This document shows, in pieces, positions 1 to 13,044 of a stretch of DNA of 20,000 nucleotides (the stretch's first letter is position 1; every line of letters starts with the position of its first letter). A program made the position numbers and the translations under genes. The stretch is taken from IMG/VR virus record IMGVR_UViG_3300011813_000035, positions 113,195-133,194 of that record; one strand, written 5' to 3'. Below the pieces are notes generated by a model. That model was not told where the DNA came from. It was given only the letters and a program-made list of their open reading frames with translations, and made no database searches. This DNA is from an uncultured virus (IMG/VR IMGVR_UViG_3300011813_000035) (taxonomy: Duplodnaviria > Heunggongvirae > Uroviricota > Caudoviricetes).

Positions 1-1
1 T

Positions 2-298
2 CATATTTTACGGATTAAAGATTTTATTGTTAGATACTGTGAAGGAGAAGAATATCGTACACTCTTAATTCCAAAGAACAAAGAAGAACTATTAGACGTT
101 AAGGCAAATTATCATTATGAATTGGAATATTCTAAATCATTGGCAAAGTCAACGTGTGATTGGATTAAGGAATATAAAGATGAGTATATGAAAAATAATC
201 CTGTTAAAATTGATGAACGGGCAGAGAATATTATGACAAAGGTAATGACGGATTTGATTACCTTCAGTATAAAACGAGAGGTAAACAACAATGGATAA
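2..298 (+). CDS. C-terminal part of a probable phage nucleotidyltransferase (Pol-beta-like), truncated by the window edge
   Basis: Frame 2 is open from base 2 to TAA 296-298 (HILRIKDFIVRYCEGEEYRTLLIPKNKEELLDVK...), overlapping the next ATG at 291. The HILR..F..RY..G pattern recalls phage nucleotidyltransferase C-termini; the function is inference. Confidence 0.5.
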   Translation, partial: HILRIKDFIVRYCEGEEYRTLLIPKNKEELLDVKANYHYELEYSKSLAKSTCDWIKEYKDEYMKNNPVKIDERAENIMTKVMTDLITFSIKREVNNNG

Positions 299-1184
299 AC
301 CTATATTTAGGATTATGATAGGGCTTTCTGCATCAGGAAAGTCTACCGTTGCAAAAAAGATAGCAAATGAAGATGATTGCGTAATTATATCATCAGATAG
401 TATACGAGGTGAAATATGCGACGGTGGAGTAATCGACCAAACCCAAAATGATGAAGTGTTTAGGATTTTTCATAAAAGAATTAAGGATAATTTGAGGTCT
501 GGTAAAAATGTTATTGCAGACGCTACCAATATTAATATGAAGGCAAGGCGTAGCTTGCTTGAAAATGTAAAGAGCGCTGATTGCCATAAAATTGCCTACA
601 TAGTACCAAAATCAGTTGAGAGGTGTATTGAGGACAATATTTATAAAGAATACCCAGTACCTCATCATGTAATCCAAAAGCAAATGATGAATTTTCAGAT
701 CCCTTTTTTAGAAGAAGGTTTCGATGAAATTCAGATACACAGGTTTAATAAAGAATATGAGTTAGCACTTACTGATCTTCAGATCAAAATGATTGGCTTT
801 AATCAAAATAATCCTTATCATAATATGACGTTGAGCAATCACTGCACATATACCGGTTTATTATTTGCAGATAACTACGGAAGAGATTATAGGGACGCTG
901 CCTATATTCATGACATTGGAAAACTGTTTACACAGAAATTTGATAACAATGGTGTTGCACACTATTATCAACATGAAAATGTAGGTAGTTATTATCTGTT
1001 GAGTAATTACAATAATCTAGATATTGACGAACAATCAATTTTAAATATGTGTTTTCTGCTAAACTACCATATGATGCCGATGTCGTGGGACAGTAATAAA
1101 TCAAAACTGAAATGGAAGAAAAGGTTTGGAGAATATAAATATCAGATGCTTTTAGACTTTAATGAGTGCGATAAAAGCCGATGA
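291..1184 (+). CDS. Polynucleotide-kinase-like P-loop (AAA_33) domain fused to an HD phosphohydrolase domain
   Basis: Walker A GLSASGKST, SSDSIR and DATN motifs; C-terminal HD domain (H...H...HDIGK...HENVG...H...D). Confidence 0.85.
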   Translation: MDKPIFRIMIGLSASGKSTVAKKIANEDDCVIISSDSIRGEICDGGVIDQTQNDEVFRIFHKRIKDNLRSGKNVIADATNINMKARRSLLENVKSADCHKIAYIVPKSVERCIEDNIYKEYPVPHHVIQKQMMNFQIPFLEEGFDEIQIHRFNKEYELALTDLQIKMIGFNQNNPYHNMTLSNHCTYTGLLFADNYGRDYRDAAYIHDIGKLFTQKFDNNGVAHYYQHENVGSYYLLSNYNNLDIDEQSILNMCFLLNYHMMPMSWDSNKSKLKWKKRFGEYKYQMLLDFNECDKSR

Positions 1185-1478
1185 ATTCTGTGTTTCAAAG
1201 AACAGTACTCCCAGAATAGTAATTTGGCGATTGTTATTCTGGTCAACACAAGCACATAAATTCAGTCAATAAATTCATTGAAAACCTCAGAAATAGTTAC
1301 TTTATAAGAGAATATACAGCTATACAACGGTTGAATATCATTATGTTTTACCGTTAAAACTCCGCTTTCATCTGGTGGTCGCGAACACTGGGTTTAAGCG
1401 CAACAATAAAAAATAAGAAAGGTAAAACAGTAAATTCTAGGATAAAGAGAATGCGCATTCCCTGTATATAGGGAAAAT

Positions 1479-2942
1479 TTGAATACAGAAAATAAATGCG
1501 GAGCTTTAAAGACATGGGAGTTAGTAAACTTCTGTGAGTTTGATAAATATGCGGTAAAGAGTTATTGTGCGATACATAATGAATCAGAAGATAAGAACCT
1601 TGGTGATATTACCAAAGTTGATGAAACAAAATTGAATACATTCAATATGGTTGTTGGTGGCAGTCCTTGCCAGGACTTTAGTGTTGCCGGTAAGCAGAAG
1701 GGATCTGTTTGGACTTGTAAGGACTGTGGAAGTGAATATAATCCACTAACGGTTCATTGGAGTAAAAGAAATACATGTCCACATTGTAACAGCGAAAATC
1801 TTGATAAATCGCGTTCTTCTTTGCTTGTAGAATGGCTTCGAGTTATTAGGGGGAACAGACCAAACTTTGGTATCTATGAAAATGTAAAGAATATTGTGGG
1901 AAAGCAGTTTAAAGAAACTTTTAAAATGTTTACGGATGAATTAATAGAGTATGACTATGATGTCTATTGGAAAGTTCTTAACGCAAAAGATTATGGTGTT
2001 CCACAAAATAGAGAACGAGTTTACCTCATCATTATTAAAAAAGAATTTGATAATGGAAAGTTTAAATATCCAACTCCTTTTGATAACGGTATAAGATTGA
2101 AAGATATATTGGAAGATGATGTAGATGAGAAATATTATATTTCAGAAGATAAAGTAAAGAAATTTTTGAATAACTTGACCTTTAATGTTACATCAGATGA
2201 AAACAATCCGAAATTCTTAGGAAATATCAATAGACCTGACTTTGGAACTGGATATGCTGGTGGTGTCTGGGATATAAAAAATATATCACCAACTCTTACA
2301 ACCATGCAAGGCGGAGGTAGACAGCCACATATTATTACATCATTGGTTTCAAATAAGGGTGAGAAATTTGAAAGAGAAACTGAAGTAGCTAACACTTTAT
2401 TGGCTAGAGATTACAAAGGTTTTGGTAATCAAGCAATGAATGCGGTAATTGAAAGAAGTAATCATTCAACCATCGCAGTAAAACAAGCTACAAAAAAAGG
2501 CTACATCGAATGCGAAATCGGAGGAGTTGCGGATTTATCATATCCAGACAGTAAAACAAGACGCGGAAGAGTACAAGATGGTGGCATGATTTCTCCAACA
2601 ATAACAGCTACAGAAACCGGAATTTGCAGAATTGAAAGCCAAATTAAAATAAGAAAATTGATTCCTCTTGAATGTTATAGGCTAATGGGATTTTCAGATT
2701 CAAATTTTAAAGCTGCCGAAAAGGTAGTTAGCAACAGCCAATTATACAAACAGGCTGGTAACAGTATCGTCGTAGATGTTTTATATTACATATTAGTCGA
2801 ACTATATAAGGCAATGCCATATTTATTCAATGACTTAAAACTAGGAAGCTATTTTTCGGGAATTGGTGCATTTGAAACCGCTTTAGATAGACTGTTTGAA
2901 GGTATTAACTCTGGAAATTTTACGCAACCACAAGTGGATTAA
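1479..2942 (+). CDS. DNA (cytosine-5)-methyltransferase, circularly permuted, with a Zn-ribbon insertion
   Basis: Motif IV GGSPCQDFS, VI ENV, VIII PQNRER, IX RKL...ECYRLMGF, X YKQAGNS. Motif I (SYFSGIGAFE) lies at the C-terminus. CKDC...CPHC insert after motif IV. TTG start. Confidence 0.9.
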   Translation: MNTENKCGALKTWELVNFCEFDKYAVKSYCAIHNESEDKNLGDITKVDETKLNTFNMVVGGSPCQDFSVAGKQKGSVWTCKDCGSEYNPLTVHWSKRNTCPHCNSENLDKSRSSLLVEWLRVIRGNRPNFGIYENVKNIVGKQFKETFKMFTDELIEYDYDVYWKVLNAKDYGVPQNRERVYLIIIKKEFDNGKFKYPTPFDNGIRLKDILEDDVDEKYYISEDKVKKFLNNLTFNVTSDENNPKFLGNINRPDFGTGYAGGVWDIKNISPTLTTMQGGGRQPHIITSLVSNKGEKFERETEVANTLLARDYKGFGNQAMNAVIERSNHSTIAVKQATKKGYIECEIGGVADLSYPDSKTRRGRVQDGGMISPTITATETGICRIESQIKIRKLIPLECYRLMGFSDSNFKAAEKVVSNSQLYKQAGNSIVVDVLYYILVELYKAMPYLFNDLKLGSYFSGIGAFETALDRLFEGINSGNFTQPQVD

Positions 2943-2955
2943 ACTCTGCTTGTGG
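2915..2955 (+). promoter_or_regulatory. Putative -1 programmed ribosomal frameshift signal
   Basis: In-frame slippery heptamer A AAT TTT (2915-2921), 6-nt spacer, 11-bp stem CCACAAGTGGA/TCTGCTTGTGG (2928-2938/2945-2955). The -1 frame stays open to 3250. Confidence 0.75.
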
Positions 2956-3250
2956 AGATCAACCAGTATTACTAGGTGGAGTTGGAGAAATAAACTTTGG
3001 GAAGCAATATAGGCAAGGAAATAGGATTTATGATTCAGACCATATTGCAATGTGCCTATTATCTCAGCCGGTGGGGAATACAGGAGGATACAGTTATTTG
3101 TACGCAGTATATGAACCAATTTGTGTAGCTATGAGAGGTAGATACAACGAAGATGGGAAGATTCGGCAACAATTAGAACTAAGACATGATGGTCTGACTA
3201 ACACGCTTACCACTGTAACAAAAGATAATCTTGTCTTAGAACATATATGA
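2921..3250 (+). CDS. MTase TRD-like module, probably the -1 frameshift extension of 1479..2942 (includes track ORF 3050..3250)
   Basis: Frame open from just after TAA 2906-2908: YATTSGLNSACGDQPVLLGGVGEINFGKQYRQGNRIYDSDHIAMCL...MRGR...QQLELRHDGLTNTLTTVTKDNLV. These segments resemble phage C5-MTase variable regions. No good RBS before ATG 3050. Confidence 0.7.
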   Translation, partial: YATTSGLNSACGDQPVLLGGVGEINFGKQYRQGNRIYDSDHIAMCLLSQPVGNTGGYSYLYAVYEPICVAMRGRYNEDGKIRQQLELRHDGLTNTLTTVTKDNLVLEHI

Positions 3251-3289
3251 AATTAAAGATTTATAGCTAGATAGAATAGGAGAACGAGA

Positions 3290-3874
3290 GTGAAAAGTAG
3301 TATAAATTATAGCAATTATATTGGAAGATATTTCAAGCAAAACAAAGACATCAACCACCTTGTGTTTAAAATACTTGGCTATGATGGTAGATACTTTAGA
3401 GCAGAGCAGTATTATTTAGCATTGGGCTATAGCGTAAGACAAGAAAATTGTGGCTATCAAGTCTCTTTTTTAGATGCAGATAATTTTGAGGAAATAACAG
3501 AGAAAGAATTTATGGGTATAGTTAGCTTATGTGATCGTCCATATATAGTCAAATATGACGAAAATGATAAACCTACCTTTTATAATGTAGATGGTAAACC
3601 TATTTTTAAACATATGAAAAAGGAGGATTTTAAAGTGACAAAAAAGTATATGCTTGGTGTTTCTAAAAACGGAATTAGCAGTTTTATATACGAAAAGGGT
3701 AGTGAGTATCTAAAGACATTCGAAAATTATAATCAAGCTTTAGAGGAAAAGAAAAAATTAGGTGACTATGATGATGTGTTTATATACTGTACAAAAATCT
3801 ATATGCCCAAAAGACTTATTCAAATTTTGTTTAGTATTTTATGCAATCTTAAAAGATTGAATTTGAAAGAATGA
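3290..3874 (+). CDS. Hypothetical phage protein (possibly two fused small genes)
   Basis: RBS AGGAG before GTG 3290; second in-frame AAGGAGG (3620-3626) plus GTG at 3635. Confidence 0.7.
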   Translation: MKSSINYSNYIGRYFKQNKDINHLVFKILGYDGRYFRAEQYYLALGYSVRQENCGYQVSFLDADNFEEITEKEFMGIVSLCDRPYIVKYDENDKPTFYNVDGKPIFKHMKKEDFKVTKKYMLGVSKNGISSFIYEKGSEYLKTFENYNQALEEKKKLGDYDDVFIYCTKIYMPKRLIQILFSILCNLKRLNLKE

Positions 3875-3897
3875 TTTCTTTGGTATCTTCAATACAT

Positions 3898-3931
3898 AAA
3901 AATAATTACACCTATATAATGGTGTAATTAT
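3898..3931 (-). terminator. Rho-independent terminator of the minus-strand 97-aa gene
   Basis: 11-bp stem ATAATTACACC (3902-3912)/GGTGTAATTAT (3921-3931), followed on the minus strand by a T run. Confidence 0.7.
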
Positions 3932-3939
3932 AATCATGA

Positions 3940-4233
3940 TTATTTAATAGTAGATAAAGAATATTGAAAGACAGGCATTAATGTATCGTCCTTATAAAGA
4001 CCAAGGCTACTTTTAAAGTTATTCTGATTTTCTTTGCATGAAATAAGTGAGTCCTGAGTAATTTCATTATTGTCGTTTAAAACAATACAAATATGGCCAT
4101 TTTGATAACCATCAAAAGTCCAGGTAAAGAAGTATTTATTATCATCAAGCTTATCAAAGACTAATTCGAACTTTGATAAATTGTCCATGATTTTCTTACC
4201 GGTTTTCACAGAACCGTTTAATCGCATAGGCAT
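3940..4233 (-). CDS. Hypothetical 97-aa moron protein with its own promoter and terminator
   Basis: RBS GAGGTG upstream of ATG; promoter at 4257-4285; terminator at 3898-3931. Confidence 0.75.
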   Translation of the reverse strand: MPMRLNGSVKTGKKIMDNLSKFELVFDKLDDNKYFFTWTFDGYQNGHICIVLNDNNEITQDSLISCKENQNNFKSSLGLYKDDTLMPVFQYSLSTIK

Positions 4234-4256
4234 TTAATCACCTCTTTTTTATTTAA

Positions 4257-4285
4257 AGTATAAACCCAATATTTGCTCATGTCAA
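4257..4285 (-). promoter_or_regulatory. SigmaA promoter TTGACA-N17-TATACT
   Basis: -35 at 4280-4285, -10 at 4257-4262, 17-nt spacer. Confidence 0.85.
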
Positions 4286-4453
4286 TAAAATATGATTTCA
4301 GAATAAAAGGAGAAGATTAAAAAGAGAATACATGATTGAAAACTAAGAATATTAAATTAGGTTTACCAGAGTTAAGATTACAAGTGTTGAGTTATGTTGT
4401 GTTGGGATAACAAAATAAGCTATTAAATGACGATTTCAAAGGAGGATAAATAA

Positions 4454-5584
4454 GTGAGCGAGTGCTACGAATTAACACTAACACAAAATTACGTTTCAGA
4501 TTGGACGTTTTGCGATGCAATTAGAGAACTTATTCAAAATGGCACAGATCAAGAAATATTAGATAATAGTAATGATTTTTCTATAAACTATGATTACAAA
4601 AATGAAATATTAAGATTTACTAATTCTAAGTCAAAGCTAAGTATTAATACTTTACTATTGGGTAAAAGCAGTAAGAGTGACAATGACGATACAGTAGGAC
4701 AATTTGGCGAAGGTTACAAGATAGCCGCACTTGTTTTGAATAGATTAGGAAAAACTTTTACAGTTTATAATAATGAGAAAAACGAAGTGTGGAAATCAAG
4801 TTTTAAAAACAGTGAAAAGTGGAGAGAAAAAATACTCTCATTTTATATTGAAAAATCTCCTACTAAGGACAAGGGACTAGTCATTGAAATTGGTAATGTG
4901 AGTAGTAGGGAGAATAATGATTTATATGACGTATGGCTTGGCTTCTATGACTTTGATGAATCTGAAAGAATCGAAACCACGTACGGAGACATTCTTTTAT
5001 CAGAAGATTTTAAGGATAGGATATTCGTAAATGGACTATCAATAAATTGTACTGAAGAAATGAAATATGGATATAATTTCAAGCCCAAATATATAAAGCT
5101 TGAACGTGACAGGAAAACGTGTGATAGCTGGCAAGCCAGGGATACAACATCGTTAATGATTGCAGAAGCCATGGTAAGAGGAAAAATGGAAATAGAAACT
5201 GTTAAAAGAATGGTCGAGAGTAATGTAAATGATGTTTACAATATGGATTTTAATGGTTACGAAAATAATGTAGTTGAAGTAAAGAATATGCTTATCTCAG
5301 AATTTGACAAACAAAATCCTACATTATATTCAATACCTGTACAATCACAAGAGGATATCAATAAGGTTAAGGCGTATGGTGGAAATCCAGTAGTCGTGCC
5401 ATCAAAGGTAGCGTCCTTACTAAAGCGAGAGACTGAAAAGAGAATAAATGAATTAGTTTCTCTCCCAGTTGAAAAGACACTTTCCCTAAGAGAAAAATTT
5501 CAGAGATGGTATGATATTTACGCTAATAAGCTTGATACAACGCCTAAAAGTGAGTTGTCAGGATTGATTAATGAGATCCAGTAA
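4454..5584 (+). CDS. GHKL (HATPase_c)-type ATPase domain protein
   Basis: N-box RELIQNGTD and G-box GQFGEGYK; RBS GGAGG, GTG start. Confidence 0.75.
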   Translation: MSECYELTLTQNYVSDWTFCDAIRELIQNGTDQEILDNSNDFSINYDYKNEILRFTNSKSKLSINTLLLGKSSKSDNDDTVGQFGEGYKIAALVLNRLGKTFTVYNNEKNEVWKSSFKNSEKWREKILSFYIEKSPTKDKGLVIEIGNVSSRENNDLYDVWLGFYDFDESERIETTYGDILLSEDFKDRIFVNGLSINCTEEMKYGYNFKPKYIKLERDRKTCDSWQARDTTSLMIAEAMVRGKMEIETVKRMVESNVNDVYNMDFNGYENNVVEVKNMLISEFDKQNPTLYSIPVQSQEDINKVKAYGGNPVVVPSKVASLLKRETEKRINELVSLPVEKTLSLREKFQRWYDIYANKLDTTPKSELSGLINEIQ

Positions 5585-5605
5585 TATTGTTGATAGGAGA
5601 AAATA

Positions 5606-5941
5606 ATGAAAACATATATTGATAATAACGTAAAAATTAATGGAAATGATTTCACTGACTACGACAGAGCTATTGAATACATAGGTAAAATAATGAAAAG
5701 AAATAAAAGTTATATATATCAATGTGATTACTGTGGCAAAAATTGTAAACATACTCCGGAGTTCATCCTTCCAGTCATTAAGTCAATTGAAACCTGTGCA
5801 TATGGAGGACATAGAGGAGCTAAGTTGGCAACTGCTGTAGGAAGTATAATGGATAATGAACAGAGAGATATTTGTCCTAGTTGTCAAAAGAAACTTGCAA
5901 GGTTGGCGAGTTTGATACCTAATGTCATTCTTACGGAATGA
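5606..5941 (+). CDS. Hypothetical protein with two CxxC pairs (Zn-binding)
   Basis: CDYC...CPSC; RBS AGGAG. Confidence 0.7.
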   Translation: MKTYIDNNVKINGNDFTDYDRAIEYIGKIMKRNKSYIYQCDYCGKNCKHTPEFILPVIKSIETCAYGGHRGAKLATAVGSIMDNEQRDICPSCQKKLARLASLIPNVILTE

Positions 5942-5973
5942 AAGAGAGGTTTCATGACGGAAGGAGGGTATAC

Positions 5974-6255
5974 ATGTTCATTGAATCAGGAGAAGAAAGG
6001 GTATTGAAACCAATAGATATTGCATATATGACAGGAAAATCTAAAACACCGATCGATTATGATTTTAAAACTGAAAAAGAAATCTTGGATAATCTCGTGG
6101 CTGCTTGGAACGCATTTGTGAAACTTCCGGTTACTCACCCGATGGAATTAGGAGATTTTTGTGATGGAATACATAGATGTCAGTACGTGTTAATGGCGAG
6201 AGAAGCTAGGAGAAGCAGACCGGATATTTATCCTTTTAAAGAAAAAAATGAATGA
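5974..6255 (+). CDS. Hypothetical phage protein (start revised from 5938 to 5974)
   Basis: AAGGAGG at 5961-5967 precedes in-frame ATG 5974; the 5938 start overlaps a boundary motif. Confidence 0.7.
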   Translation: MFIESGEERVLKPIDIAYMTGKSKTPIDYDFKTEKEILDNLVAAWNAFVKLPVTHPMELGDFCDGIHRCQYVLMAREARRSRPDIYPFKEKNE

Positions 6256-6297
6256 TTAACAGATAAAAGCGATGTTTCATGACAGAAAGGAGTTTTA

Positions 6298-6741
6298 ATG
6301 TTTAATAAGTATTACACGGAAAACCACAAAACTACCAATAATACAACAAATATTTTTAATATTCCAGATGAATATATAATACATCATCGAAATCAAAATG
6401 ATGATATTGATAGACTTAAATACTACATCGAAAATGCAAGTGCTGTTGATAGTTGCGCGATATGGCTAGATGTTTTATATCCAATAACAAAGAAAATAAA
6501 GGATAGTGTAACTAATTATATCATGAGGGATTACAAAGGGGAAGAACATACTTTAACGATTTCCGTAAGTGAACCACAATTTGTCACGGCTCTTTCAATC
6601 CCAAAAACAAGAGATTCGATGAGCGTAATTAGTAATAGTATACGAACACAGTTTAACATGAACAATTACATAATGGTAAATACGGATATATTTAACGGTG
6701 ATTTTAAGATTGTAATTAGATTATTAGGTCGGATAGAATAA
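6298..6741 (+). CDS. Hypothetical protein
   Basis: RBS AAAGGAG, 147 aa, flanked by boundary motifs. Confidence 0.7.
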   Translation: MFNKYYTENHKTTNNTTNIFNIPDEYIIHHRNQNDDIDRLKYYIENASAVDSCAIWLDVLYPITKKIKDSVTNYIMRDYKGEEHTLTISVSEPQFVTALSIPKTRDSMSVISNSIRTQFNMNNYIMVNTDIFNGDFKIVIRLLGRIE

Positions 6742-6766
6742 TACATTCAATTAAGAGGGAGATAAA

Positions 6767-7015
6767 ATGTTAAATATTTTTAAAAAAGGTCATGAAACGC
6801 TTACATCTGATATTGATACATGGGTAGTTAGATGGAATAGGAGATATGGAGATTTTAGTGGAAGTTATGAGAAAACAGCACAATTTTTTACAGATAAAAG
6901 TGAAGCTCTTAGATTTCAAGAAGAATTAAAACGTGCCATTAAATTGTTAGGACATACCGCGTCTCACTTAACAGATGTACGGTGTGAAAGAGTTAAGAAA
7001 AACAGTTGTGAATAA
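6767..7015 (+). CDS. Hypothetical protein
   Basis: RBS GAGGAG, 82 aa, flanked by boundary motifs. Confidence 0.7.
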   Translation: MLNIFKKGHETLTSDIDTWVVRWNRRYGDFSGSYEKTAQFFTDKSEALRFQEELKRAIKLLGHTASHLTDVRCERVKKNSCE

Positions 7016-7050
7016 AACAAACCTTTCAAATAGAATGGAGGTGATTTTAA

Positions 7051-7382
7051 ATAGAAGGAGCGTGTAGTAACCAAGTTGTAAAATGCATTATTTATACTAA
7101 TGATTTAGAACTGGGAAGAAGTAAACTGAAAGAAATTGAAAAAGATAAAGGGTCACAGGAATTTATATCATTAAGAAGATCAGATCCCAGTATAACAACG
7201 AGACAATATTCGATGACGGAGAAGAATGGATCACAGTAAAGCCTAACAATGGAGCAAGGGGATATAGGTGGAGAAAAGCATGGATAGATGTCAAGACCCC
7301 TTATGAACAGCTTACAACATGTGTGCTACCATATGGAGATTGGTATAGGTGGGAAGATCCAAAGTATTTTAATTGGGATTGA
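7051..7382 (+). pseudogene. Frameshifted hypothetical gene
   Basis: RBS GGAGGTG then ATA-initiated frame IEGACSNQVVKCIIYTNDLELG...; after ~7150 the coding-like sequence continues in the -1 frame (TGIYIIKKIRSQYNNETIFDDGEEWITVKPNNGARGYRWRKAWID...WD, TGA 7380-7382). Confidence 0.6.
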
Positions 7383-7409
7383 AATCAACATTTGAAAGGA
7401 GAAAATTAC

Positions 7410-7562
7410 GTGAGCAAAGTTAGGTTGGCTGGTATGAGAGTAGGAACTACCGGAATCCTGGGTGCTGTTTTGAATATGTGTAACAAAGGAAAGAGTGTCT
7501 CTGACATTAAAACGTTCTGTGAAACATCATTAAATTTAGACGGTATGAAGGAGGATAAATAA
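7410..7562 (+). CDS. 50-aa hypothetical protein (below the track cutoff)
   Basis: RBS AAAGGAG, GTG start, MSKVRLAGMRVGTTGILGAVLNMCNKGKSVSDIKTFCETSLNLDGMKEDK; ends adjacent to the next ATG. Confidence 0.55.
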   Translation: MSKVRLAGMRVGTTGILGAVLNMCNKGKSVSDIKTFCETSLNLDGMKEDK

Positions 7563-7563
7563 T

Positions 7564-7833
7564 ATGGAATTAAATGAATATTGGTCTGCACAAGCAGTGG
7601 AGGAATATAAAAGCATGTTGTATGAACAGAAAATGCAACACTATGGTTTAGCCTGTGAATTACAGGCACCACACGTAATTCATAATGCAGAAATAAAACA
7701 AGATGGAGATATGTGGTGTTGTATTTTGGGTGATCTGCCTACGGGTGTCGTCGGATTTGGAAAAACTCCGAAAGAAGCATGTGATGAGTTTGATATAGTT
7801 TGGCACGAAGGATATAAGACAACCAAACAGTAA
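7564..7833 (+). CDS. Small protein with a HicB-antitoxin-like C-terminal segment
   Basis: DGDMWCCILGDLPTGVVGFGKTPKEA resembles the HicB N-terminal pattern (D/E-G...PDLPG....G.T.EEA); RBS AAGGAGG. Confidence 0.5.
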   Translation: MELNEYWSAQAVEEYKSMLYEQKMQHYGLACELQAPHVIHNAEIKQDGDMWCCILGDLPTGVVGFGKTPKEACDEFDIVWHEGYKTTKQ

Positions 7834-7851
7834 ATTGAAGGGAGATGCAAA

Positions 7852-8184
7852 GTGGAACAAAGTAGGAATAGGGTTAAAAAATTAAACGATACTTCAGACT
7901 ACAAGTATGCGGCAAGACAATATAAAGATTATTCAATAGCGAAAGAAATTGAGTCGGATCTTAAAGTAATGGTATATGCGATTTTGGGGAGTAAAAAAGA
8001 TATAGACGTTCAAAGCTCAAAGACCCCAAGTTGTTTTGGAGTCGTAGGGAAGGAACCTAAATATTATTGGTTTGCCTATATCAAGCCAGGTGGTTATATG
8101 TTCTTAGCAGAGTCTGAAATCGAATTATATTGTAACATCATTGCTAAAATTGTTGGGAATAGACTGTATATACCATTCAGTTAA
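7852..8184 (+). CDS. Hypothetical protein
   Basis: RBS AAGGGAG, GTG start, 110 aa. Confidence 0.65.
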   Translation: MEQSRNRVKKLNDTSDYKYAARQYKDYSIAKEIESDLKVMVYAILGSKKDIDVQSSKTPSCFGVVGKEPKYYWFAYIKPGGYMFLAESEIELYCNIIAKIVGNRLYIPFS

Positions 8185-8231
8185 TAACGTTAAAACGGAA
8201 GTTTTATAGCTCAACAGGTGACAAGGTAAAC

Positions 8232-8252
8232 AAAAAAGGCGACATGATCGCC
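8232..8252 (-). terminator. Rho-independent terminator of the RT operon
   Basis: Minus strand GGCGA-TCATG-TCGCC-TTTTTT, 3 nt after the RT stop codon. Confidence 0.8.
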
Positions 8253-8255
8253 CAA

Positions 8256-9206
8256 TTATTTTTCTTTAGAAAACTTATATAAATTCTGATATTGACCAGG
8301 ATTGACTTGACGAATGGCAGTTAGTAATCCTTGAAGACGCTTCTTAGATTTTTCTGGATTTAATTTTAGCTCAGTTAATTCATGTATTACCTTAAGGCGC
8401 ATTGAGTTTCGAGGTATGGGATTTCCATTCCTGTCAAGAACAACTCCAGTAATAAGTTTTGGATAATTCTTGGTATACGTTTTAACTTTTGACTTGGAAA
8501 TCATATAATGATATTTTGTTACTATTTTATTAACCATAGTTTTAAATCGATAATTAATTTTATTAGCACAAGAAAATGTTACATCGTCGGCATATATTGT
8601 CATAACTATATTATTTTTAGAAGATAGATTATATAATTCATCAAACATTGGTCTATTTACTAAGTATGATAAAATTGGGCTGGCTGGAGAACCCGTTGCT
8701 AAATGGTTTGAATTTTTTAATTTCTTTTGCATATAAAAACTTTCAACTTTATCAACATTTTTTAAGGGACACAAAGTTAAATCAACTGTTGTTAAGTTGG
8801 TAAGAATATTTGCAATATCAGGGGAGGTTTTGAGTTCATTAATAAAAAATAAATAGACATATTCTCGAGGTATACATGGGAAGAAAGCTGTTAAATCAAT
8901 TTTATATACATACTTATTCCCTTTATGGATTAATGCGTTATCATAATATGATTTACCTTTAACACCTGAAAAAACATAGTTTGGAACTTTTATTTGACTT
9001 AATTGAGATTTGAGCGATCTTTGAATTTGTTTGACACTGTAAGATGGCGCTTCAACCAATCTTGGTTTAGCTTTCGTATCAATGTAGATATTGTATTCCA
9101 TTGCAATATCTTTTTGATTAAAACTATTCTTATTTGTAATCTTTAATAAGTACCTTAAAGATTTTTTTGACTTTAAGTTATATATTTTACAGTTTGTATA
9201 ATTCAT
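8256..9206 (-). CDS. Retron-type reverse transcriptase
   Basis: KIDLTAFF, LATGSPASPILS (variant of PQG..TSP), catalytic YADD, retron region X NALIH (NAxxH) and region Y ITG (VTG-like). 316 aa with no maturase or endonuclease domain. RBS AAGGAG at 9214-9219. Confidence 0.9.
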   Translation of the reverse strand: MNYTNCKIYNLKSKKSLRYLLKITNKNSFNQKDIAMEYNIYIDTKAKPRLVEAPSYSVKQIQRSLKSQLSQIKVPNYVFSGVKGKSYYDNALIHKGNKYVYKIDLTAFFPCIPREYVYLFFINELKTSPDIANILTNLTTVDLTLCPLKNVDKVESFYMQKKLKNSNHLATGSPASPILSYLVNRPMFDELYNLSSKNNIVMTIYADDVTFSCANKINYRFKTMVNKIVTKYHYMISKSKVKTYTKNYPKLITGVVLDRNGNPIPRNSMRLKVIHELTELKLNPEKSKKRLQGLLTAIRQVNPGQYQNLYKFSKEK

Positions 9207-9236
9207 ACAAACACTCCTTGCTTTTTAGTGCTAGTA

Positions 9237-9461
9237 TCAATCCTTAACAATCTCATATAATAACTGGATGAAACGAGATAGGGTTTTAGGATCAACGTGT
9301 GGTGCAATCAGTGATACGATAAGTAAAGCAACAATGAAGAGTAGTAGTGCTACTATTAACTGACCCAAATTAATATTGTAATTATTATTAATGGTACAAT
9401 TGGTCAAGTTGGTCTGATTGTTGCTAAAAATTTGTGGATTTTTATCATCCGGTTTTTTCAT
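9237..9461 (-). CDS. 74-aa Asn-rich, single-transmembrane protein; candidate retron effector/toxin
   Basis: RBS AAGGAGG (9468-9474); NNQTNLTNCTINNNYNIN then hydrophobic LIVALLLFIVALLIVSLIA and an amphipathic C-terminal helix; lies between the ncRNA and the RT. Confidence 0.75.
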   Translation of the reverse strand: MKKPDDKNPQIFSNNQTNLTNCTINNNYNINLGQLIVALLLFIVALLIVSLIAPHVDPKTLSRFIQLLYEIVKD

Positions 9462-9468
9462 AATTCAC

Positions 9469-9523
9469 CTCCTTGTTATTATTGGCTCCATATGGAGTCT
9501 CCCAATCCATTAATAACAAAGAG
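9469..9523 (-). promoter_or_regulatory. SD-sequestering hairpin in front of the 74-aa ORF
   Basis: RNA CUCUUUGUUAUUA (9523-9511) pairs with UAAUAACAAGGAG (9481-9469): 13 bp with one G-U. Inner palindrome CTCCATATGGAG at 9486-9497. Confidence 0.75.
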
Positions 9524-9810
9524 ATACATAACCTTGCATCACTATACTAGCACAAAACTTACTCCCTATTTTTTTCTATAGGAGATTAAAATTTCAAAAC
9601 CAACCGATTACCTTTTCATTGATGACATAGTCCTACGAACAAACACTTCGCACCGCACCTTTTCCGATACCCGGGGGAGGTACAATCATCTCGTCTCCAC
9701 TATTGTCGTCGAAAGGGATTGGGGTTTTAAAAATACTCAGAAGGCTCTGAGTAGCATTCATGTTGGTAGCATGAACCATATTGGGAGAAATCTGGTTATT
9801 ATTCACTGAC
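9498..9810 (-). ncRNA. Putative retron ncRNA (msr-msd)
   Basis: 9-bp inverted repeat at 9780-9788/9498-9506 (a2/a1-like); GG at 9777-9776 just inside; two short hairpins (9757-9775, 9734-9753); long branched stem 9592-9732; further hairpin 9562-9584; promoter immediately upstream. Confidence 0.7.
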
Positions 9811-9816
9811 ATGGGC

Positions 9817-9845
9817 ATTATATCATATTTTGGAAAAAACATCAA
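9817..9845 (-). promoter_or_regulatory. SigmaA promoter TTGATG-N17-TATAAT with extended -10 TG
   Basis: -35 at 9840-9845, -10 at 9817-9822 preceded by TGA; transcription start predicted near 9810. Confidence 0.85.
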
Positions 9846-9872
9846 TTAAAATTGGGATTTTAAAGGAGGGTT

Positions 9873-10406
9873 ATGACAGATAAAGAAAGAATATTAATGA
9901 CAATAATTACTAGAATAATTCCAGGCTTGATGTATTGTGGTAATTCATATGAAAAGAGAGAAGAATATGTTAAATCATATATGCTTGATACGGCTGGACT
10001 CGAAAGTGGAGATCTAGTATTTGCGAATACATCAATCTATCCGAATGATTTTATAGTAGGGTTTATTCACGAAATTAAGCCTGATTGTATCGTCATAAGA
10101 GAAATCGGGAGCGATAGATTGTGTAATTACTATAATGAAATGTTTACAAAAATCAACAAAGACAAACTTGGATATGAGATATTGGAAGGAGTTCAATATA
10201 AAACATATCATAAGGTATTAAAAGCTTTTAGCGATTATGCAAGTTATGCAACAAAGTTTAAATATATTTCATTTGACGAAAACACGTGCACTGTCCAGTC
10301 AAGAATAATGTTTTCAGATGAAATCAAGTATGAAATAAAATTTAAATATGATAGTAAAACCACTATTAAGAGTATTGGAAAACTAATTAAAGAAAAGGAG
10401 GTTTAA
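9873..10406 (+). CDS. Hypothetical phage protein
   Basis: RBS AAAGGAGG, 177 aa. Confidence 0.75.
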   Translation: MTDKERILMTIITRIIPGLMYCGNSYEKREEYVKSYMLDTAGLESGDLVFANTSIYPNDFIVGFIHEIKPDCIVIREIGSDRLCNYYNEMFTKINKDKLGYEILEGVQYKTYHKVLKAFSDYASYATKFKYISFDENTCTVQSRIMFSDEIKYEIKFKYDSKTTIKSIGKLIKEKEV

Positions 10407-11033
10407 ATGGGGTATAAGGATATTTTGGGCAGAGAACTCCACGACGGAGATATTTGTGTCGGAAAAGGAACGGGTAGAGATGTATGTGGAATGGACGTTG
10501 GTATATGGTCTGGCAAATCTATTGCATTTAAGGGCGGAAATAAACGTTCAATGGGAGATGTATTTCTTGTAGTAAATCCAACAGAAGAAGAACTGACAAT
10601 TAAAAGTGATATTGAAAAATCTTTAATTGAAAGCGAGAACAAAAGACTAGAAAGAGATTCTGTAAAAACAATACCACTAAGTAAACTTGAAGTTGGTGGA
10701 ATATATGAATGTAACAATAATTACTTGTACCTGTATTTAGGAAAACGCAAAGTCACATTTAAAAATCTACAGTATAAAAATTCTGATCCTAAAGTTCAGG
10801 AGGGACATTGCTTTGTTTTTGCTTGCGGATCTGATGACGAAAAAATAAAGAAAGATATCGTTGAAATTGGAACGTATCATGGAAATCATAGAATAGAAGT
10901 ATTGAAGGGAAATAAGAAACTCACAAAACTAATTCGCAAGATTGATTTAGAGTTCCCCATGGTTAATGAGGTGCATAGCGAAGGATACCTCAGATATAGT
11001 CCAAATTATCATTATGAATTAACAGTAGAATAG
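10407..11033 (+). CDS. Hypothetical phage protein
   Basis: RBS AAGGAGG; abuts the previous stop; N-terminal KDILGRELHDGD pattern is common in phage proteins. Confidence 0.75.
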   Translation: MGYKDILGRELHDGDICVGKGTGRDVCGMDVGIWSGKSIAFKGGNKRSMGDVFLVVNPTEEELTIKSDIEKSLIESENKRLERDSVKTIPLSKLEVGGIYECNNNYLYLYLGKRKVTFKNLQYKNSDPKVQEGHCFVFACGSDDEKIKKDIVEIGTYHGNHRIEVLKGNKKLTKLIRKIDLEFPMVNEVHSEGYLRYSPNYHYELTVE

Positions 11034-11067
11034 CTTTAAAATTTAACATTCATTCGCGAAGTGGGAG

Positions 11068-11328
11068 GTGACTGTTATTAATTATGAATTATATAGAAGA
11101 CTAATTATGATTGCAATAGACGGGGAAAGGTATGAAATATATCTTTATTGTAACAAATCGGACTTTCATCTGTTTGATGAGATGTTACAGAATTGTAAGT
11201 TCTTGTATGTAAGGGATTTTGAAATACACTACAAAGATCCAAATTATGTTTATAAAATAAATAACACTTCGGGTGTCGTGCAAATAAATATGAATTGCAT
11301 AAGAGAATATTATTATGAACTGATTTAA
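11068..11328 (+). CDS. Hypothetical protein (start uncertain)
   Basis: 86-aa ORF between two boundary motifs; GGGAGG overlaps the GTG, so the real start may be slightly downstream. Confidence 0.55.
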   Translation: MTVINYELYRRLIMIAIDGERYEIYLYCNKSDFHLFDEMLQNCKFLYVRDFEIHYKDPNYVYKINNTSGVVQINMNCIREYYYELI

Positions 11329-11358
11329 AAGTGTAGATTCATATGGAAAGGAGTAGCC

Positions 11359-11586
11359 GTGGTAATTGGAAAAATTGTAAATAAGCAGACTAATCAAGAT
11401 GTATGTCAGAATTACTTAAATAAAGAATTAAGAGATTTTGAAGCAAATATTGGAGAAGATTTAAAAATCATCTACACAAATGGGTCATTCTTTACTCACG
11501 AAAAGGTGTTAGAGTGTGACCAAGATGATTATGGATTTTGGATTGAGACTACTAATAAATTATGGAGAATTGATAACCATACATAA
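11359..11586 (+). CDS. Hypothetical protein
   Basis: RBS AAAGGAG, GTG start, bracketed by boundary motifs. Confidence 0.7.
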   Translation: MVIGKIVNKQTNQDVCQNYLNKELRDFEANIGEDLKIIYTNGSFFTHEKVLECDQDDYGFWIETTNKLWRIDNHT

Positions 11587-11684
11587 ATGCATTGTTTCAT
11601 AAATCTAAGATAAGCATTAATGGCTTGTCGTCTAACAAACAACAATCCCAACAATTTTACAATTAAATATAGGAGGCAAAGAAC

Positions 11685-11885
11685 ATTAAAGGAATTATTT
11701 ACGCCGAAGATTTAGCTATGGAATTATTAAAACATCCCAAGGCTCTGGTTTGTGCTGGCAAAATGGGATCAGATACATATAGAAATGACAGGAAAATAGA
11801 GAATATATTTTTGAGAGACGGAGATACCCTCGTCTTAAGTATTGATGATTATTGTACCAATGGAGAATTAAAATATTTCAAATAG
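11685..11885 (+). CDS. 66-aa hypothetical protein with a non-canonical ATT start (not in track)
   Basis: AGGAGG at 11671-11676, 8 nt before ATT; open to TAG 11883-11885 (IKGIIYAEDLAMELLKHPKALVCAGKMG...). Confidence 0.5.
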   Translation: MKGIIYAEDLAMELLKHPKALVCAGKMGSDTYRNDRKIENIFLRDGDTLVLSIDDYCTNGELKYFK

Positions 11886-11900
11886 AAAGGAAAGTAGTAA

Positions 11901-12485
11901 ATGCAAATAAGCAACGTAAATGTTTATGGATTAGAAAATGCCATTAGGGTTAGCAAGTTTCCTATGGCAGTAAACGTTGAAGACTGTACATGTGAAACAA
12001 TCAAAACAACATCAAAATTAGGGTCGTGCAAATCAGGCAGTGGTCATGATAATTATATAAAAGGGATCATCGTACAGTTTGATATGAGATTCAGTAACAA
12101 GATGTCCGTGGAACTTGAAAGATACCACTTCATTGATTTCATATCTAGTCAGTCAACTATGCATCGTATTACAAAATTCATGCTTGAAGATCAATGTAAT
12201 GAATTTGTAGATCAGAGAGTTATTGATATTGTCCAGGAAATGATTGATGTCTATAACGGATTAGAAGATAAGGGCACTGAATTTGCCAAGGATCTATATT
12301 TAAGAATTTTATATAATATCCCTTCAGGATTTGAATTAACCGCTGGATTCACAACAAATTACCAGCAATTGAAAACAATCTATTGGCAGCGTAGAAATCA
12401 TCGGCTCCCTGAGTGGCGAGCGTTCTGTAAATGGGTAGAAACTTTGCCAAAGTTTGGAGAATTAGTATTGGGAGGTGAAAAATAA
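11901..12485 (+). CDS. ThyX-like (flavin-dependent thymidylate synthase fold) phage protein
   Basis: GHDNY, ELERYHF...SQSTMHR, NYQQLKTIYWQRRNHRLPEW pattern; located in the nucleotide-metabolism block. Confidence 0.55.
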   Translation: MQISNVNVYGLENAIRVSKFPMAVNVEDCTCETIKTTSKLGSCKSGSGHDNYIKGIIVQFDMRFSNKMSVELERYHFIDFISSQSTMHRITKFMLEDQCNEFVDQRVIDIVQEMIDVYNGLEDKGTEFAKDLYLRILYNIPSGFELTAGFTTNYQQLKTIYWQRRNHRLPEWRAFCKWVETLPKFGELVLGGEK

Positions 12486-13013
12486 TTGATCGTTATTTTA
12501 GGAGAGAGTGCTAGTGGTAAATCCACAGTGCAGGATATCTTATGTAAAAATTATGGATATGTAAGACTAATTACATACACAACAAGAAGCCCAAGAGAAG
12601 GCGAAGAAAACGGAGTAGATTATCATTTTATTTCAGAAGATACGTTTGAAGAAATGAGCAGAAAAGGAGAGTTCTGTGAAACGGCAGAATACAATGGTTG
12701 GCACTATGCAACTGCGAAAGCTGATTGTACTGATAATAAAGTAGTCGTACTTACACCCCACGGACTAAGGCAGATGAAAAAATTTGATGAACTTACTCTT
12801 GATGCTTTCTATATTGACGTGCCAAGAAGAGACAGGCTTATTAAAATTTTACAGCGCGGTGACAGCATAGAGGAGGCATATCGGAGATCTCTTTCTGATG
12901 TCGGACAGTTTGACGGTATTAGGGATGAAGTAGATTCTACGTTTTGTAATCCTGGATATAAAAAGAGTCCGGAAGAAGTTGCGAAAGAAATTATTAGTAG
13001 ATTAAGGAGATGA
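12486..13013 (+). CDS. gmk: Guanylate kinase
   Basis: GESASGKST, TTRSPREGEENGVDYHF, YNGWHYAT. Confidence 0.88.
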   Translation: MIVILGESASGKSTVQDILCKNYGYVRLITYTTRSPREGEENGVDYHFISEDTFEEMSRKGEFCETAEYNGWHYATAKADCTDNKVVVLTPHGLRQMKKFDELTLDAFYIDVPRRDRLIKILQRGDSIEEAYRRSLSDVGQFDGIRDEVDSTFCNPGYKKSPEEVAKEIISRLRR

Positions 13014-13044
13014 AAGATGGTTTTCATTTGAGAGGAGATAAGGT

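What the first reader, a model, noticed from the sequence alone, without database searches (positions are those of the whole stretch)
1182..13026. 17 copies of a 5-6-5 inverted motif punctuate gene boundaries: a possible phage gene-cassette system
Seen: T(A/G)AAA-N6-(T/A)TT(C/T)A at 17 positions, all at gene ends or intergenic. In 8 cases the first 3 nt are the stop codon (1182, 3248, 5939, 7013, 7380, 11326, 11584, 13011), and most copies are followed shortly by the next RBS. Every 6-nt spacer differs. I saw none at boundaries after 13026 (nrdD-nrdG-dut-hydrolase-int). Established: inverted arms around a 6-8-bp spacer is tyrosine-recombinase core-site geometry (dif/pdif), and some such enzymes (Tn916 Int) tolerate mismatched spacers. 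Inference: these sites delimit exchangeable one- or two-gene cassettes, an integron/pdif-like array in a phage. Alternatives are operators of a phage regulator or RNA-processing/antitermination signals. I scanned boundaries more closely than gene interiors, so enrichment needs a formal test.
Basis: partly seen in the sequence, partly recalled or inferred. Interest (0 to 1): 0.85.

Follow-up and report, generated by a model that had tools for sequence, protein, structure and literature searches.

The report
Position-coded junction sites between phage gene cassettes
A large SPbeta-like prophage separates its small early genes with 16-base sites that share inverted arms but each carry their own 6-base middle, and related phages keep these sites in the same order while the genes between them differ, so the sites look like docking points for swapping gene cassettes.

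Summary
The motif T(A/G)AAA-N6-(A/T)TT(C/T)A is real. The window has 13 exact sites, 20 strand matches against 3.4 expected, plus 2 sites with one arm mismatch. All 13 exact sites lie between genes. The excess is specific to a 6-base spacing and to a ~140-kb SPbeta-like prophage; the host genome shows none. The arms do not covary, so this is a double-stranded DNA site, not a hairpin.

The new result concerns the spacers. Within a genome each spacer is unique. Between related phages the same spacers recur in the same order while the flanking genes are unrelated: 114 identical cross-genome spacer pairs against 2 expected, and only 5 one-mismatch pairs. Homology blocks between relatives, between SPbeta and phi3T, and in metagenome contigs start or end at site edges. 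One example is a retron cassette lying exactly between two sites.

Bacillus phage SPbeta has the same motif, and it is distinct from the known SPBRE/MrpR operator.

Best reading: position-coded recombination linkers bounding exchangeable cassettes, likely a tyrosine-recombinase-like mechanism that needs spacer identity. No enzyme was identified. The main rival is a regulator-binding site that doubles as short homology. My literature searches found no description of it.

The parts
1182..1197 (.). junction site TGAATTCTGTGTTTCA; its TGA is the stop codon of ORF 291-1184
1355..1370 (.). junction site with spacer CTCCGC, shared with relatives L043 and L044
3248..3263 (.). junction site with spacer TTAAAG, shared with L039 and L043; its TGA is the stop codon of ORF 3050-3250
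4423..4438 (.). junction site TTAAATGACGATTTCA (one arm mismatch) with spacer TGACGA, found in 7 of the 8 sequences compared (window plus six relatives) next to unrelated flanks
5939..5954 (.). junction site with spacer GAGAGG, found in 6 of the 8 sequences compared; its TGA is the stop codon of ORF 5606-5941
6264..6279 (.). junction site with spacer GCGATG, not shared with the relatives examined
7013..7028 (.). junction site with spacer CAAACC, found in 4 of the 8 sequences compared; its TAA is the stop codon of ORF 6767-7015
7079..7094 (.). site with spacer TGCATT, not shared, lying inside a slot with no long ORF
7380..7395 (.). junction site TGAAATCAACATTTGA (one arm mismatch) with spacer TCAACA, at the collinear place of the series
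8191..8206 (.). junction site with spacer CGGAAG, found in 7 of the 8 sequences compared; left border of the retron cassette
8207..9846 (-). cassette holding a retron type VI reverse transcriptase (8256-9206), two small ORFs, and its own promoter-like (9845-9817) and terminator-like (8253-8237) sites
9847..9862 (.). junction site with spacer TTGGGA, found in 5 of the 8 sequences compared; right border of the retron cassette
11037..11052 (.). junction site with spacer TTTAAC; homology of an X2 metagenome contig ends at 11055
11326..11341 (.). junction site with spacer GTGTAG; homology of an X1 contig starts at 11323
11584..11599 (.). junction site with spacer GCATTG, found in 4 of the 8 sequences compared; homology of an X1 contig ends at 11597
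13011..13026 (.). last junction site, spacer GATGGT, found in 5 of the 8 sequences compared; the conserved nrdD-nrdG-dut-hydrolase-int block follows without sites
18209..19501 (+). tyrosine-type integrase at the prophage end, one of three tyrosine-recombinase genes of the prophage; no link to the sites was shown

Best explanation
The 16-bp sites are position-coded recombination linkers that bound exchangeable gene cassettes in the variable early region of SPbeta-like phages.

Shown here:
- All sites share inverted arms, (A)T-R-A-A-A and T-T-T-Y-A(T), exactly 6 bp apart.
- Each junction has its own 6-bp spacer.
- Related phages carry the same spacers in the same order while the genes on one or both sides are unrelated.
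- Homology blocks start and end at the site edges.

Inferred:
- The arms bind a dimeric protein, most likely a tyrosine-type recombinase, and the spacer is the crossover (overlap) region, which must be identical in both partners.
- Because every junction has a different spacer, only equivalent junctions of two co-resident phages can recombine. Exchange then stays in register and swaps cassettes, and the genome does not delete itself.
- The left arm often supplies the stop codon of the upstream gene, and each cassette brings its own ribosome-binding site, so the operon stays readable after an exchange.
For: Real, spacing-specific and prophage-specific motif.

Double-stranded DNA site rather than a hairpin:
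- Arm positions 2 and 15 combine as A/T 8, G/C 6, G/T 5 and A/C 8 of 27. This is my hand count from the list, and independence predicts about 8 A/C.
- The palindrome extends symmetrically: A at -1 in 17 of 27 sites and T at +16 in 18 of 27.

Spacer code:
- The window shares 4-9 spacers with each of 7 of 10 close relatives, against 0.05-0.13 expected by chance, always in the same order.
- Genome-wide the prophage shares 18, 18, 15, 6 and 2 spacers with five whole relatives (chance 1.2-2.1), with 15, 17, 13, 4 and 2 collinear.
- Of 155 same-spacer pairs between genomes, 112 have neither 40-nt flank at 60% identity or more, 21 have one such flank and 22 both.
- Spacer distances are all-or-none: d=0 in 114 pairs (null 1.95) and d=1 in 5 pairs (null 27.5). 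The arms of same-spacer pairs differ at 1.21 of 10 positions.
- In a pattern-free check, 10 of 12 isolated exact matches of 17 nt or more between the window and its relatives lie on sites, which cover 1.8% of the sequence.
- Only 3 of 22 genes in window 291-11586 have a match in the five relatives' contigs.

Breakpoints at sites:
- A 309-bp block, 100% identical between L043 and L044, is bounded by two sites, and other blocks begin on the first base of a site.
- Between SPbeta and phi3T, homology starts or ends at sites, and 5 identical sites have both flanks unrelated.
- 7 of 23 phage records lose homology to SPbeta 1 nt after site 116415-116430.
- 6 of 17 records start on the first base of site 117535.
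- An X1 metagenome contig carries window 8189-9869, the retron cassette between two sites, at ~97% identity with other DNA on both sides.

Candidate enzymes: two extra tyrosine-recombinase genes keep the R, H-x-x-R, H/W and Y residues.
Against: - No recombinase could be tied to the sites. The Xer-like 344-aa protein (a YomM homologue) is also present in a Staphylococcus SPbeta-like phage whose 44-kb early region has no motif peak.
- Both extra recombinases are only 23-33% identical among relatives that share identical sites.
- Only 5-6 bp per arm are conserved, which is short for known recombinase-binding elements (recalled).
- Many breakpoints between relatives lie at ribosome-binding sites or stop codons without a motif, so the motif is not needed for mosaicism.
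- All the evidence is comparative. No recombination event was observed, and related genomes are not independent samples.
- Grouping sites by identical spacer is partly circular; address this only in part.
Confidence: 0.5

Rival explanations
1. The arms are an operator for a phage DNA-binding dimer, for example a roadblock, silencer or insulator at every gene boundary. The sites become mosaic junctions only because they are the sole short sequences shared between diverged phages. General short-homology recombination (the phage has a Sak4-like annealing protein and a RecJ-like nuclease) plus selection for intact genes then does the rest.
For: - The arms behave as independent half-sites of a double-stranded DNA palindrome.
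- There are about 50 sites per phage, all just upstream of ribosome-binding sites.
- A Sak4-like protein and a RecJ-like protein are encoded.
- Breakpoints also occur at ribosome-binding sites and stop codons without a motif.
- No dedicated recombinase was found.
Against: - A regulator does not need junction-specific spacers kept identical across phages whose shared genes are only 65-85% identical in DNA.
- Variable positions next to the spacer (5 and 12) cut the uninterrupted identity to about 8-12 bp in pairs that evidently recombined. That is very short for annealing-based recombination (recalled).
- Arms common to all sites would favour out-of-register exchange under a pure homology model.
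Confidence: 0.3
2. The motif acts in the mRNA as a processing, stability or translation signal placed ahead of each ribosome-binding site.
For: 19 of 33 intergenic sites lie 10-32 nt upstream of a start codon on the coding strand.
Against: - An inverted-complement motif without pairing constraint (A/C at 8 of 27 sites, more than G/T at 5) fits neither a hairpin nor a dimer on single-stranded RNA (one search list).
- The distance to the ribosome-binding site varies from 1 to 14 nt (one search list).
- An RNA signal does not explain spacers conserved beside unrelated flanks.
- No Rfam family matches.
Confidence: 0.04
3. The array is an integron-like system in which cassettes carry folded single-stranded attC-type sites and are captured one by one by an integron-type integrase.
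For: Small, mostly co-oriented genes are separated by imperfect inverted repeats, and an integrase lies about 5 kb downstream.
Against: - The sites are 16 bp with 5-bp arms and show no pairing covariation.
- The sites stay put while the cassettes change, so they belong to the scaffold and not to the cassette.
- The order is conserved.
- One cassette is inverted and has its own promoter-like site.
Confidence: 0.03
4. The pattern is a by-product of AT-rich intergenic composition: a stop codon, an A-run, a T-run, then the ribosome-binding site.
For: The arms are A/T-only apart from R/Y, and the left arm begins with TAA or TGA.
Against: 27 intergenic sites occur at spacing 6 against 0-3 at each of 14 other spacings in the same intergenic DNA. 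0 of 200 shuffles reach the observed count. The spacers are conserved across genomes.
Confidence: 0.01

Closest known systems
PeSL cassettes of T4-type phages (Arbiol et al. 2010, PMC2839356, abstract read; PMC4122927, search listing only)
   Same: Short conserved intergenic elements in hyperplastic regions full of small unknown genes. Insertions, deletions and replacements between related phages occur at them.
   Different: PeSLs are a strong sigma-70-like promoter plus a terminator stem-loop, and they recombine with one another by homology, even forming mini-circles. Here the sites are 16 bp, with no promoter or terminator signature. Each site is unique through its spacer, so exchange should occur only between equivalent junctions of two genomes.
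pdif modules of Acinetobacter plasmids (recalled, no call)
   Same: Discrete gene modules are bounded by inverted-arm sites with a 6-bp centre, and the same module is found in different contexts.
   Different: pdif sites have 11-bp XerC and XerD arms and depend on the host Xer proteins. Here only 5-6 bp per arm are conserved, the array is in a phage, and the sites are ordered and position-specific.
Integron attC/IntI cassette arrays (recalled, no call)
   Same: An array of small genes separated by recombination-type repeats, with cargo that includes defence genes.
   Different: attC sites are 57-141 bp, fold as single strands and travel with the cassette. Here the sites are 16 bp of double-stranded DNA and stay in the scaffold.
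Heterospecific lox/FRT sites used for recombinase-mediated cassette exchange (synthetic biology; recalled)
   Same: Common arms with differing spacers mean that only like sites recombine, so a segment between two unlike sites is exchanged in register.
   Different: That is an engineered use of Cre or Flp. A natural array of more than 15 such sites has not, to my knowledge, been described, and no enzyme is known here.
SPBRE, the operator of the SPbeta master repressor MrpR (Kohm et al. 2023, PMC10516654, passages read)
   Same: A repeated intergenic element of the same phage family, bound by a protein with a tyrosine-recombinase fold.
   Different: SPBRE is a 15-bp motif at 10 promoter regions. 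The sequence shared upstream of the ten ChAP-seq genes (around CAAATACAAAAAATATGTATAT) is unrelated to TAAAA-N6-TTTTA. SPbeta has 53 junction-type sites, most of them away from those promoters.
Boundary or linker sequences of the modular theory of phage evolution (Botstein 1980; lambdoid phages; recalled)
   Same: Short conserved sequences between modules that allow diverged phages to exchange modules.
   Different: The lambdoid examples are ordinary patches of homology without a common architecture. Here all linkers share one palindromic frame with a coded centre.

Membership tests
Tyrosine-recombinase core-type site (dif/lox/FRT geometry) | Two inverted binding arms around a 6-8-bp central region | tested here: met
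   Fixed 5-6-5 geometry; spacing 6 is the only enriched spacing.
Tyrosine-recombinase core-type site (dif/lox/FRT geometry) | Arms of about 7-13 conserved bp that give specific binding | tested here: not met
   Only positions -1 to 5 and 12 to 17 carry information; positions further out are at background.
Tyrosine-recombinase core-type site (dif/lox/FRT geometry) | The central region must be identical in the two partners | tested here: inconclusive
   Comparative data fit this: identical spacers in 114 cross-genome pairs against 5 with one mismatch, while the arms vary. No reaction was observed.
Tyrosine-recombinase core-type site (dif/lox/FRT geometry) | A cognate recombinase that cleaves at the spacer borders | not testable with these tools
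   Three tyrosine-recombinase genes are present and two were checked for catalytic residues. None correlates with the motif.
Integron | attC sites of 57-141 bp that fold as imperfect hairpins and belong to the cassette | tested here: not met
   The sites are 16 bp, show no pairing covariation, and are retained when cassettes change.
Integron | An IntI-type integrase with attI and Pc next to the array | not tested
   The integrase at 18209-19501 matches only the general Phage_integrase family. The IntI-specific insertion was not examined.
pdif modules | 28-bp sites made of 11-bp XerC and XerD arms around 6 bp | tested here: not met
   The arms conserve 5-6 bp only.
pdif modules | The same module, bounded by sites, occurs in different contexts | tested here: met
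   A 309-bp block at 100% identity lies between two sites in L043 and L044. The retron cassette 8189-9869 occurs in an X1 contig with other flanks.
PeSL (T4-type phages) | A sigma-70-like early promoter plus a terminator stem-loop | tested here: not met
   Promoter-like sites number 79 against 70.5 +/- 8.3 in shuffles, and none of the strong ones lies on a site. No G+C-rich stem is present at the sites.
PeSL (T4-type phages) | Lies in hyperplastic regions and marks indel and replacement breakpoints | tested here: met
   3 of 22 genes are shared, yet most sites are shared. Breakpoints lie at sites.
SPBRE / MrpR operator | A 15-bp motif at about 10 early promoters, bound by MrpR in ChAP-seq | tested here: not met
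   The sequence is different and there are 53 sites in SPbeta, not 10.

The most novel reading that the evidence does not exclude
SPbeta-like phages carry a natural counterpart of recombinase-mediated cassette exchange. An ordered array of dozens of heterospecific sites has common arms read by one phage-encoded (or recruited host) recombinase and a unique 6-bp overlap per junction. Phages too diverged for homologous recombination could then swap accessory and defence cassettes in register during co-infection or prophage-phage encounters.
Probability: 0.35. Interest if true: 0.95.

Novelty: new variant of a known kind. Interest (0 to 1): 0.87.

Why it matters
How phages stay collinear yet mosaic is an old question. 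The modular theory postulated linkers between modules, but defined linkers are rare. Here a 50-year-old model phage (SPbeta) and a distant relative share a simple sequence code that marks module borders at single-base resolution.

This makes the question testable in Bacillus subtilis: change one spacer and see whether that junction stops being used. The slots carry cargo such as a retron, so the sites may explain how defence and counter-defence genes move between large temperate phages. If a recombinase reads these sites, it would be a natural multi-site cassette-exchange system and a ready-made toolkit of orthogonal sites.

Tried and rejected
Searches for relatives:
- Megablast of the whole window against phage records found nothing.
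- A DNA search of 301 genomes of the host's family found only nrdD, dut, methylase and tRNA-like host homologues, and no related prophage.
- The first related-locus scan mostly hit GC-rich phages without the motif; only L033 was of the same kind.

Analyses that led nowhere or were replaced:
- A weight matrix built from the pattern was circular and added nothing.
- An island search with 12-mers was swamped by chance matches; the length-graded count replaced it.
- L045 and L048 lack the motif in the region homologous to the window, but their whole contigs do carry sites elsewhere. Presence/absence profiling therefore could not be used to find the binding protein.

Attempts to find the binding protein or enzyme:
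- Profiling of all prophage proteins against five relatives and SPbeta gave no clean candidate.
- Single-protein checks also gave none: the YomM-like recombinase, the short recombinase, the HU-like protein and a 62-aa YosK-like protein.
- Pfam scans of conserved small proteins gave nothing useful.
- The most conserved protein (window 11901-12485) has no PDB relative, and the Atlas gives only a weak ThyX lead.

RNA evidence:
- Rfam gave no match.
- No RNA holder is listed among public runs, so transcript ends could not be examined.

Literature:
- I found no description of the motif in searches for SPBRE, SPbeta intergenic or inverted repeats, mosaic or cassette terms, or phi3Ts hybrids, nor in the passages read of PMC8270828, 10.1101/2021.11.22.469490 and 10.1101/2020.05.06.055103.
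- The 1999 SPbeta genome paper is not in the library, so I cannot exclude a mention there.
- The yomM/yopP search returned only Yersinia papers.
- The journal version of the hybrid-phage paper is not held and bioRxiv supplements are closed. I therefore could not check whether its single 'nonhomologous recombination site after yosA' is site 116415.

Other:
- The Hyb2 hybrid genome crosses over elsewhere.
- Earlier notes of this scan held nothing for this genome.

Full report
WHAT IS THERE. The window is G000:C1:230580-250579. It lies at the right end of a low-GC island (~33% against 40% for the genome) that spans about C1:112,000-252,000. The island is a ~140-kb prophage. Its late genes lie on the minus strand and a long plus-strand early region ends in nrdD-nrdG-dut-hydrolase-integrase. 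Its 1,357-aa DNA polymerase is 45% identical to YorL of Bacillus phage SPbeta over 99% of its length, so this is a distant SPbeta-like phage.

The exact pattern gives 20 strand matches at 13 positions against 3.38 expected, and 0 of 200 shuffles reach 20. All 13 positions are intergenic or overlap only a stop codon. Two more sites have one arm mismatch, at 4423 and 7380. Seven of the eight stop-codon overlaps are right; none was confirmed at 7380.

The decisive control is spacing. In the prophage, spacing 6 gives 50 sites against 7-27 at the other 14 spacings, and the host DNA has no peak. Within the 6,947 non-coding bases of the early region, spacing 6 gives 27 sites against 0-3 at the other spacings. 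Junctions of 27 nt or more between co-oriented genes in 1182-13026 almost all hold a site. Junctions without one are 21 nt or shorter, except 2942|3050 and 6741|6767. After 13026 there are no sites.

DNA, NOT RNA. The arm positions that would pair (2 and 15) combine as A/T 8, G/C 6, G/T 5 and A/C 8 of 27. This is my count from the list, and it is what independent half-sites give. A/C mismatches outnumber G/U wobbles on the coding strand. The palindrome extends symmetrically by one base, with A at -1 in 17 of 27 sites and T at +16 in 18 of 27. An inverted-complement motif without a pairing constraint is the signature of a dimer on double-stranded DNA. The distance to the ribosome-binding site varies from 1 to 14 nt.

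THE SAME MOTIF IS IN SPBETA. SPbeta has 53 sites at spacing 6 against 10-21 at most other spacings and 37 at spacing 10. Among intergenic sites alone the figures are 35 against 2-7, with 19 at spacing 10. Most are TAAAA-N6-TTTTA, often with TAA as the stop codon of the upstream gene and a ribosome-binding site behind. The phi3T early region has 25 against 2-15.

This is not the SPBRE, the 15-bp operator of the repressor MrpR found at ten promoters (PMC10516654, passages read). The sequence shared upstream of those ten genes is different.

Three whole relatives of the window's prophage have 44-48 sites against 6-22 at other spacings, and two others have weaker peaks of 25 and 22. A Staphylococcus SPbeta-like phage has no peak in 44 kb, 10 against 2-14. 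Sixteen more distant loci that share one gene have no peak either.

THE KEY RESULT: A SPACER CODE. Within the prophage no spacer occurs twice among 56 sites. Between phages the opposite holds.

The window shares 7, 4, 4, 6, 9, 6 and 5 spacers with seven of ten close relatives and 0 with the other three, against a chance expectation of 0.02-0.13. The shared spacers are always in the same order: CTCCGC, TTAAAG, TGACGA, GAGAGG, CAAACC, (TCAACA), CGGAAG, TTGGGA, GCATTG, GATGGT. Further members (TGAAAC, GAATGA, GTAACG, CTGGAC, GTGAAA) appear in the relatives. One shared 'site', GGAATT, lies in conserved coding DNA with relaxed arms and is probably not a real site. Genome-wide the prophage shares 18, 18, 15, 6 and 2 spacers with five whole relatives (chance 1.2-2.1), of which 15, 17, 13, 4 and 2 are collinear.

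Of 155 same-spacer pairs between genomes, 112 have neither adjoining 40 nt at 60% identity or more, 21 have one such flank and 22 both. Random 40-mers average 28% identity, with a maximum of 55%. Spacer distances are all-or-none: 114 identical pairs (null 1.95) against 5 pairs with one mismatch (null 27.5). The arms of identical-spacer pairs differ at 1.21 of 10 positions.

So the part that is free within a genome is the most constrained part between genomes. A pattern-free check agrees: of the 12 isolated exact matches of 17 nt or more between window 1-13200 and seven relatives, 10 lie on sites that occupy 1.8% of the sequence. Meanwhile only 3 of 22 genes in window 291-11586 have any match in the five relatives' contigs. 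SPbeta and phi3T show the same pattern: 19 identical-spacer pairs in collinear order, five of them with both flanks unrelated.

BREAKPOINTS.
- Between SPbeta and phi3T, homology starts on or just before the first base of a site (phi3T 76354, 83280, 84628) or ends in the right arm or the spacer (79566, 80194).
- Among the window's relatives, a 309-bp block that is 100% identical between L043 and L044 runs from the first base of one site to 5 nt past the next, with unrelated DNA outside. Other blocks start at L040/L043 11031, L041/L042 8651 and L039/L044 5597, or end at L040/L042 2257, L042/L043 1318 and 3560, at or inside sites.
- Seven of 23 phage records lose homology to SPbeta at 116431, 1 nt after site 116415-116430.
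- In a second SPbeta stretch, 6 of 17 records begin on the first base of site 117535. Single records end at 117550, 118486 and 118888, at or within 6 nt of site ends.
- In public metagenome contigs, one X1 contig carries window 8189-9869 at ~97% identity, with unrelated DNA before it, 500 other bases after it, and a return to homology at 11644. Further contig ends fall at 11055, 11323 and 11597, all at site edges. These are contigs of other phages, not reads.
- Against a strict role: other breakpoints lie at ribosome-binding sites or stop codons without a motif, and related genomes are not independent.

THE CARGO. The segment between sites 8191 and 9847 is a minus-strand unit. It holds a retron type VI reverse transcriptase (PADLOC RT_VI, E 2.6e-69; Pfam RVT_1), two small ORFs, a promoter-like site at 9845-9817 and a terminator-like site at 8253-8237. 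It is a self-contained defence cassette sitting in one slot.

MECHANISM. Shown: common arms, fixed spacing, junction-specific spacers conserved in order across phages, and flanks replaced at the site edges. Inferred: the arms bind a dimeric protein, and the spacer is the region where strands are exchanged and so must match.

That is the logic of tyrosine recombinases, and of engineered heterospecific lox/FRT sites (recalled). It would make exchange register-specific and protect the genome from internal deletions.

The prophage encodes three tyrosine-recombinase homologues. The 344-aa Xer-like one and the 261-aa one both keep the R, H-x-x-R, H/W and Y residues. Neither can be tied to the sites. 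They are only 23-33% identical among relatives with identical sites, and the 344-aa type is also in the motif-poor Staphylococcus phage. The arms are also short for a recombinase.

The main rival is a regulator-binding site that serves as short homology for the phage's Sak4-like/RecJ-like recombination functions. It explains the arms and the motif-free breakpoints, but it does not explain the strict spacer identity next to variable arm positions. I put site-linked recombination of some kind at about 0.75-0.8, and a dedicated spacer-matching recombinase at about 0.35-0.5.

COMPARISON AND NOVELTY. The closest described system is the PeSL of T4-type phages (PMC2839356, abstract read). PeSLs also mark shuffling points in hyperplastic regions, but they are promoter-terminator units that recombine with each other. 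The sites here have neither signature and are individually coded. Integron attC sites, pdif modules and lambdoid boundary sequences (all recalled) each share one aspect and fail defining features (see the membership rows).

I found no description of the motif in the searches and passages listed under Tried and rejected. The original 1999 SPbeta genome paper and closed supplements could not be checked.

VERDICT. The integron and Tn916 details are not supported, and the enzyme is unknown.

Noticed in passing
window 8207-9846 (minus strand): A retron type VI reverse transcriptase (8256-9206; PADLOC RT_VI, E 2.6e-69) with two small upstream ORFs (9237-9461, 9633-9845). It has its own promoter-like site (9845-9817) and terminator-like site (8253-8237). 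No Rfam retron RNA matched, and the msr/msd RNA was not located.
   Followed up: partly
window 7029-7379: The slot between sites 7013 and 7380 holds no ORF of 45 aa or more on either strand (the longest are 43 aa on the minus strand and 35 aa on the plus strand), plus an extra unshared site at 7079. It may be a decayed cassette or a non-coding gene.
   Followed up: no
window 1371-1394 (within the 294-nt gap 1185-1478): Just after site 1355 lies a stretch, tctggtggtcgcgaacactgggtt, that is conserved in relatives. L044 has it directly after the same site, and L043 has a 16-nt exact match 45 nt further on. It contains a CGAAC half of the Bacillus SOS-box consensus quoted in PMC8270828 and lies upstream of the cytosine methyltransferase gene.
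   Followed up: no
L045 and L048 (IMG/VR relatives), junctions listed: In the region homologous to the window these two phages have no 5-6-5 sites. Several junctions instead carry (A/T)TTGAC(C/A/G)GG 10-20 nt upstream of the ribosome-binding site, and one has a clear TTGACT-17-TATAAT promoter.
   Followed up: partly
prophage C1:150,000-162,000 and C1:210,000-225,000 against G301-G305: Whole functional modules are swapped as well. The replication module (helicase, primase, RecJ-like, polymerase) is 89-96% identical in protein to G301 only. The head and packaging module is 84-96% identical to G303 only. The other relatives carry unrelated modules.
   Followed up: partly
G000:C1:165004-166038 (-) and C1:194935-195720 (+): Besides the integrase, two more tyrosine-recombinase genes have their catalytic residues in place. 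The first is the counterpart of SPbeta yomM and is found in every SPbeta-like record searched. Their roles are unknown.
   Followed up: partly
G000:C1:198553-200601 (+): A 682-aa early protein combines a Sigma70 region-2 match (E 1.2e-5) with a GmrSD_N/DUF262 nuclease-type domain (E 7.8e-9). This is an odd fusion, conserved at 66-68% in two relatives.
   Followed up: no
SPbeta NC_001884 (L009-L011): SPbeta has a second, smaller excess of the same arms at spacing 10: 37 sites overall and 19 intergenic, against 2-7 at most other spacings. This is unexplained.
   Followed up: no
window 11901-12485: This 194-aa protein (PHROG 6721, function unknown) is the most conserved protein of the phage group, at 79-88% identity in all five relatives. 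The Atlas gives a weak lead to ThyX (PF02511 in 18% of one neighbouring cluster), which would fit the nucleotide-metabolism genes around it.
   Followed up: partly
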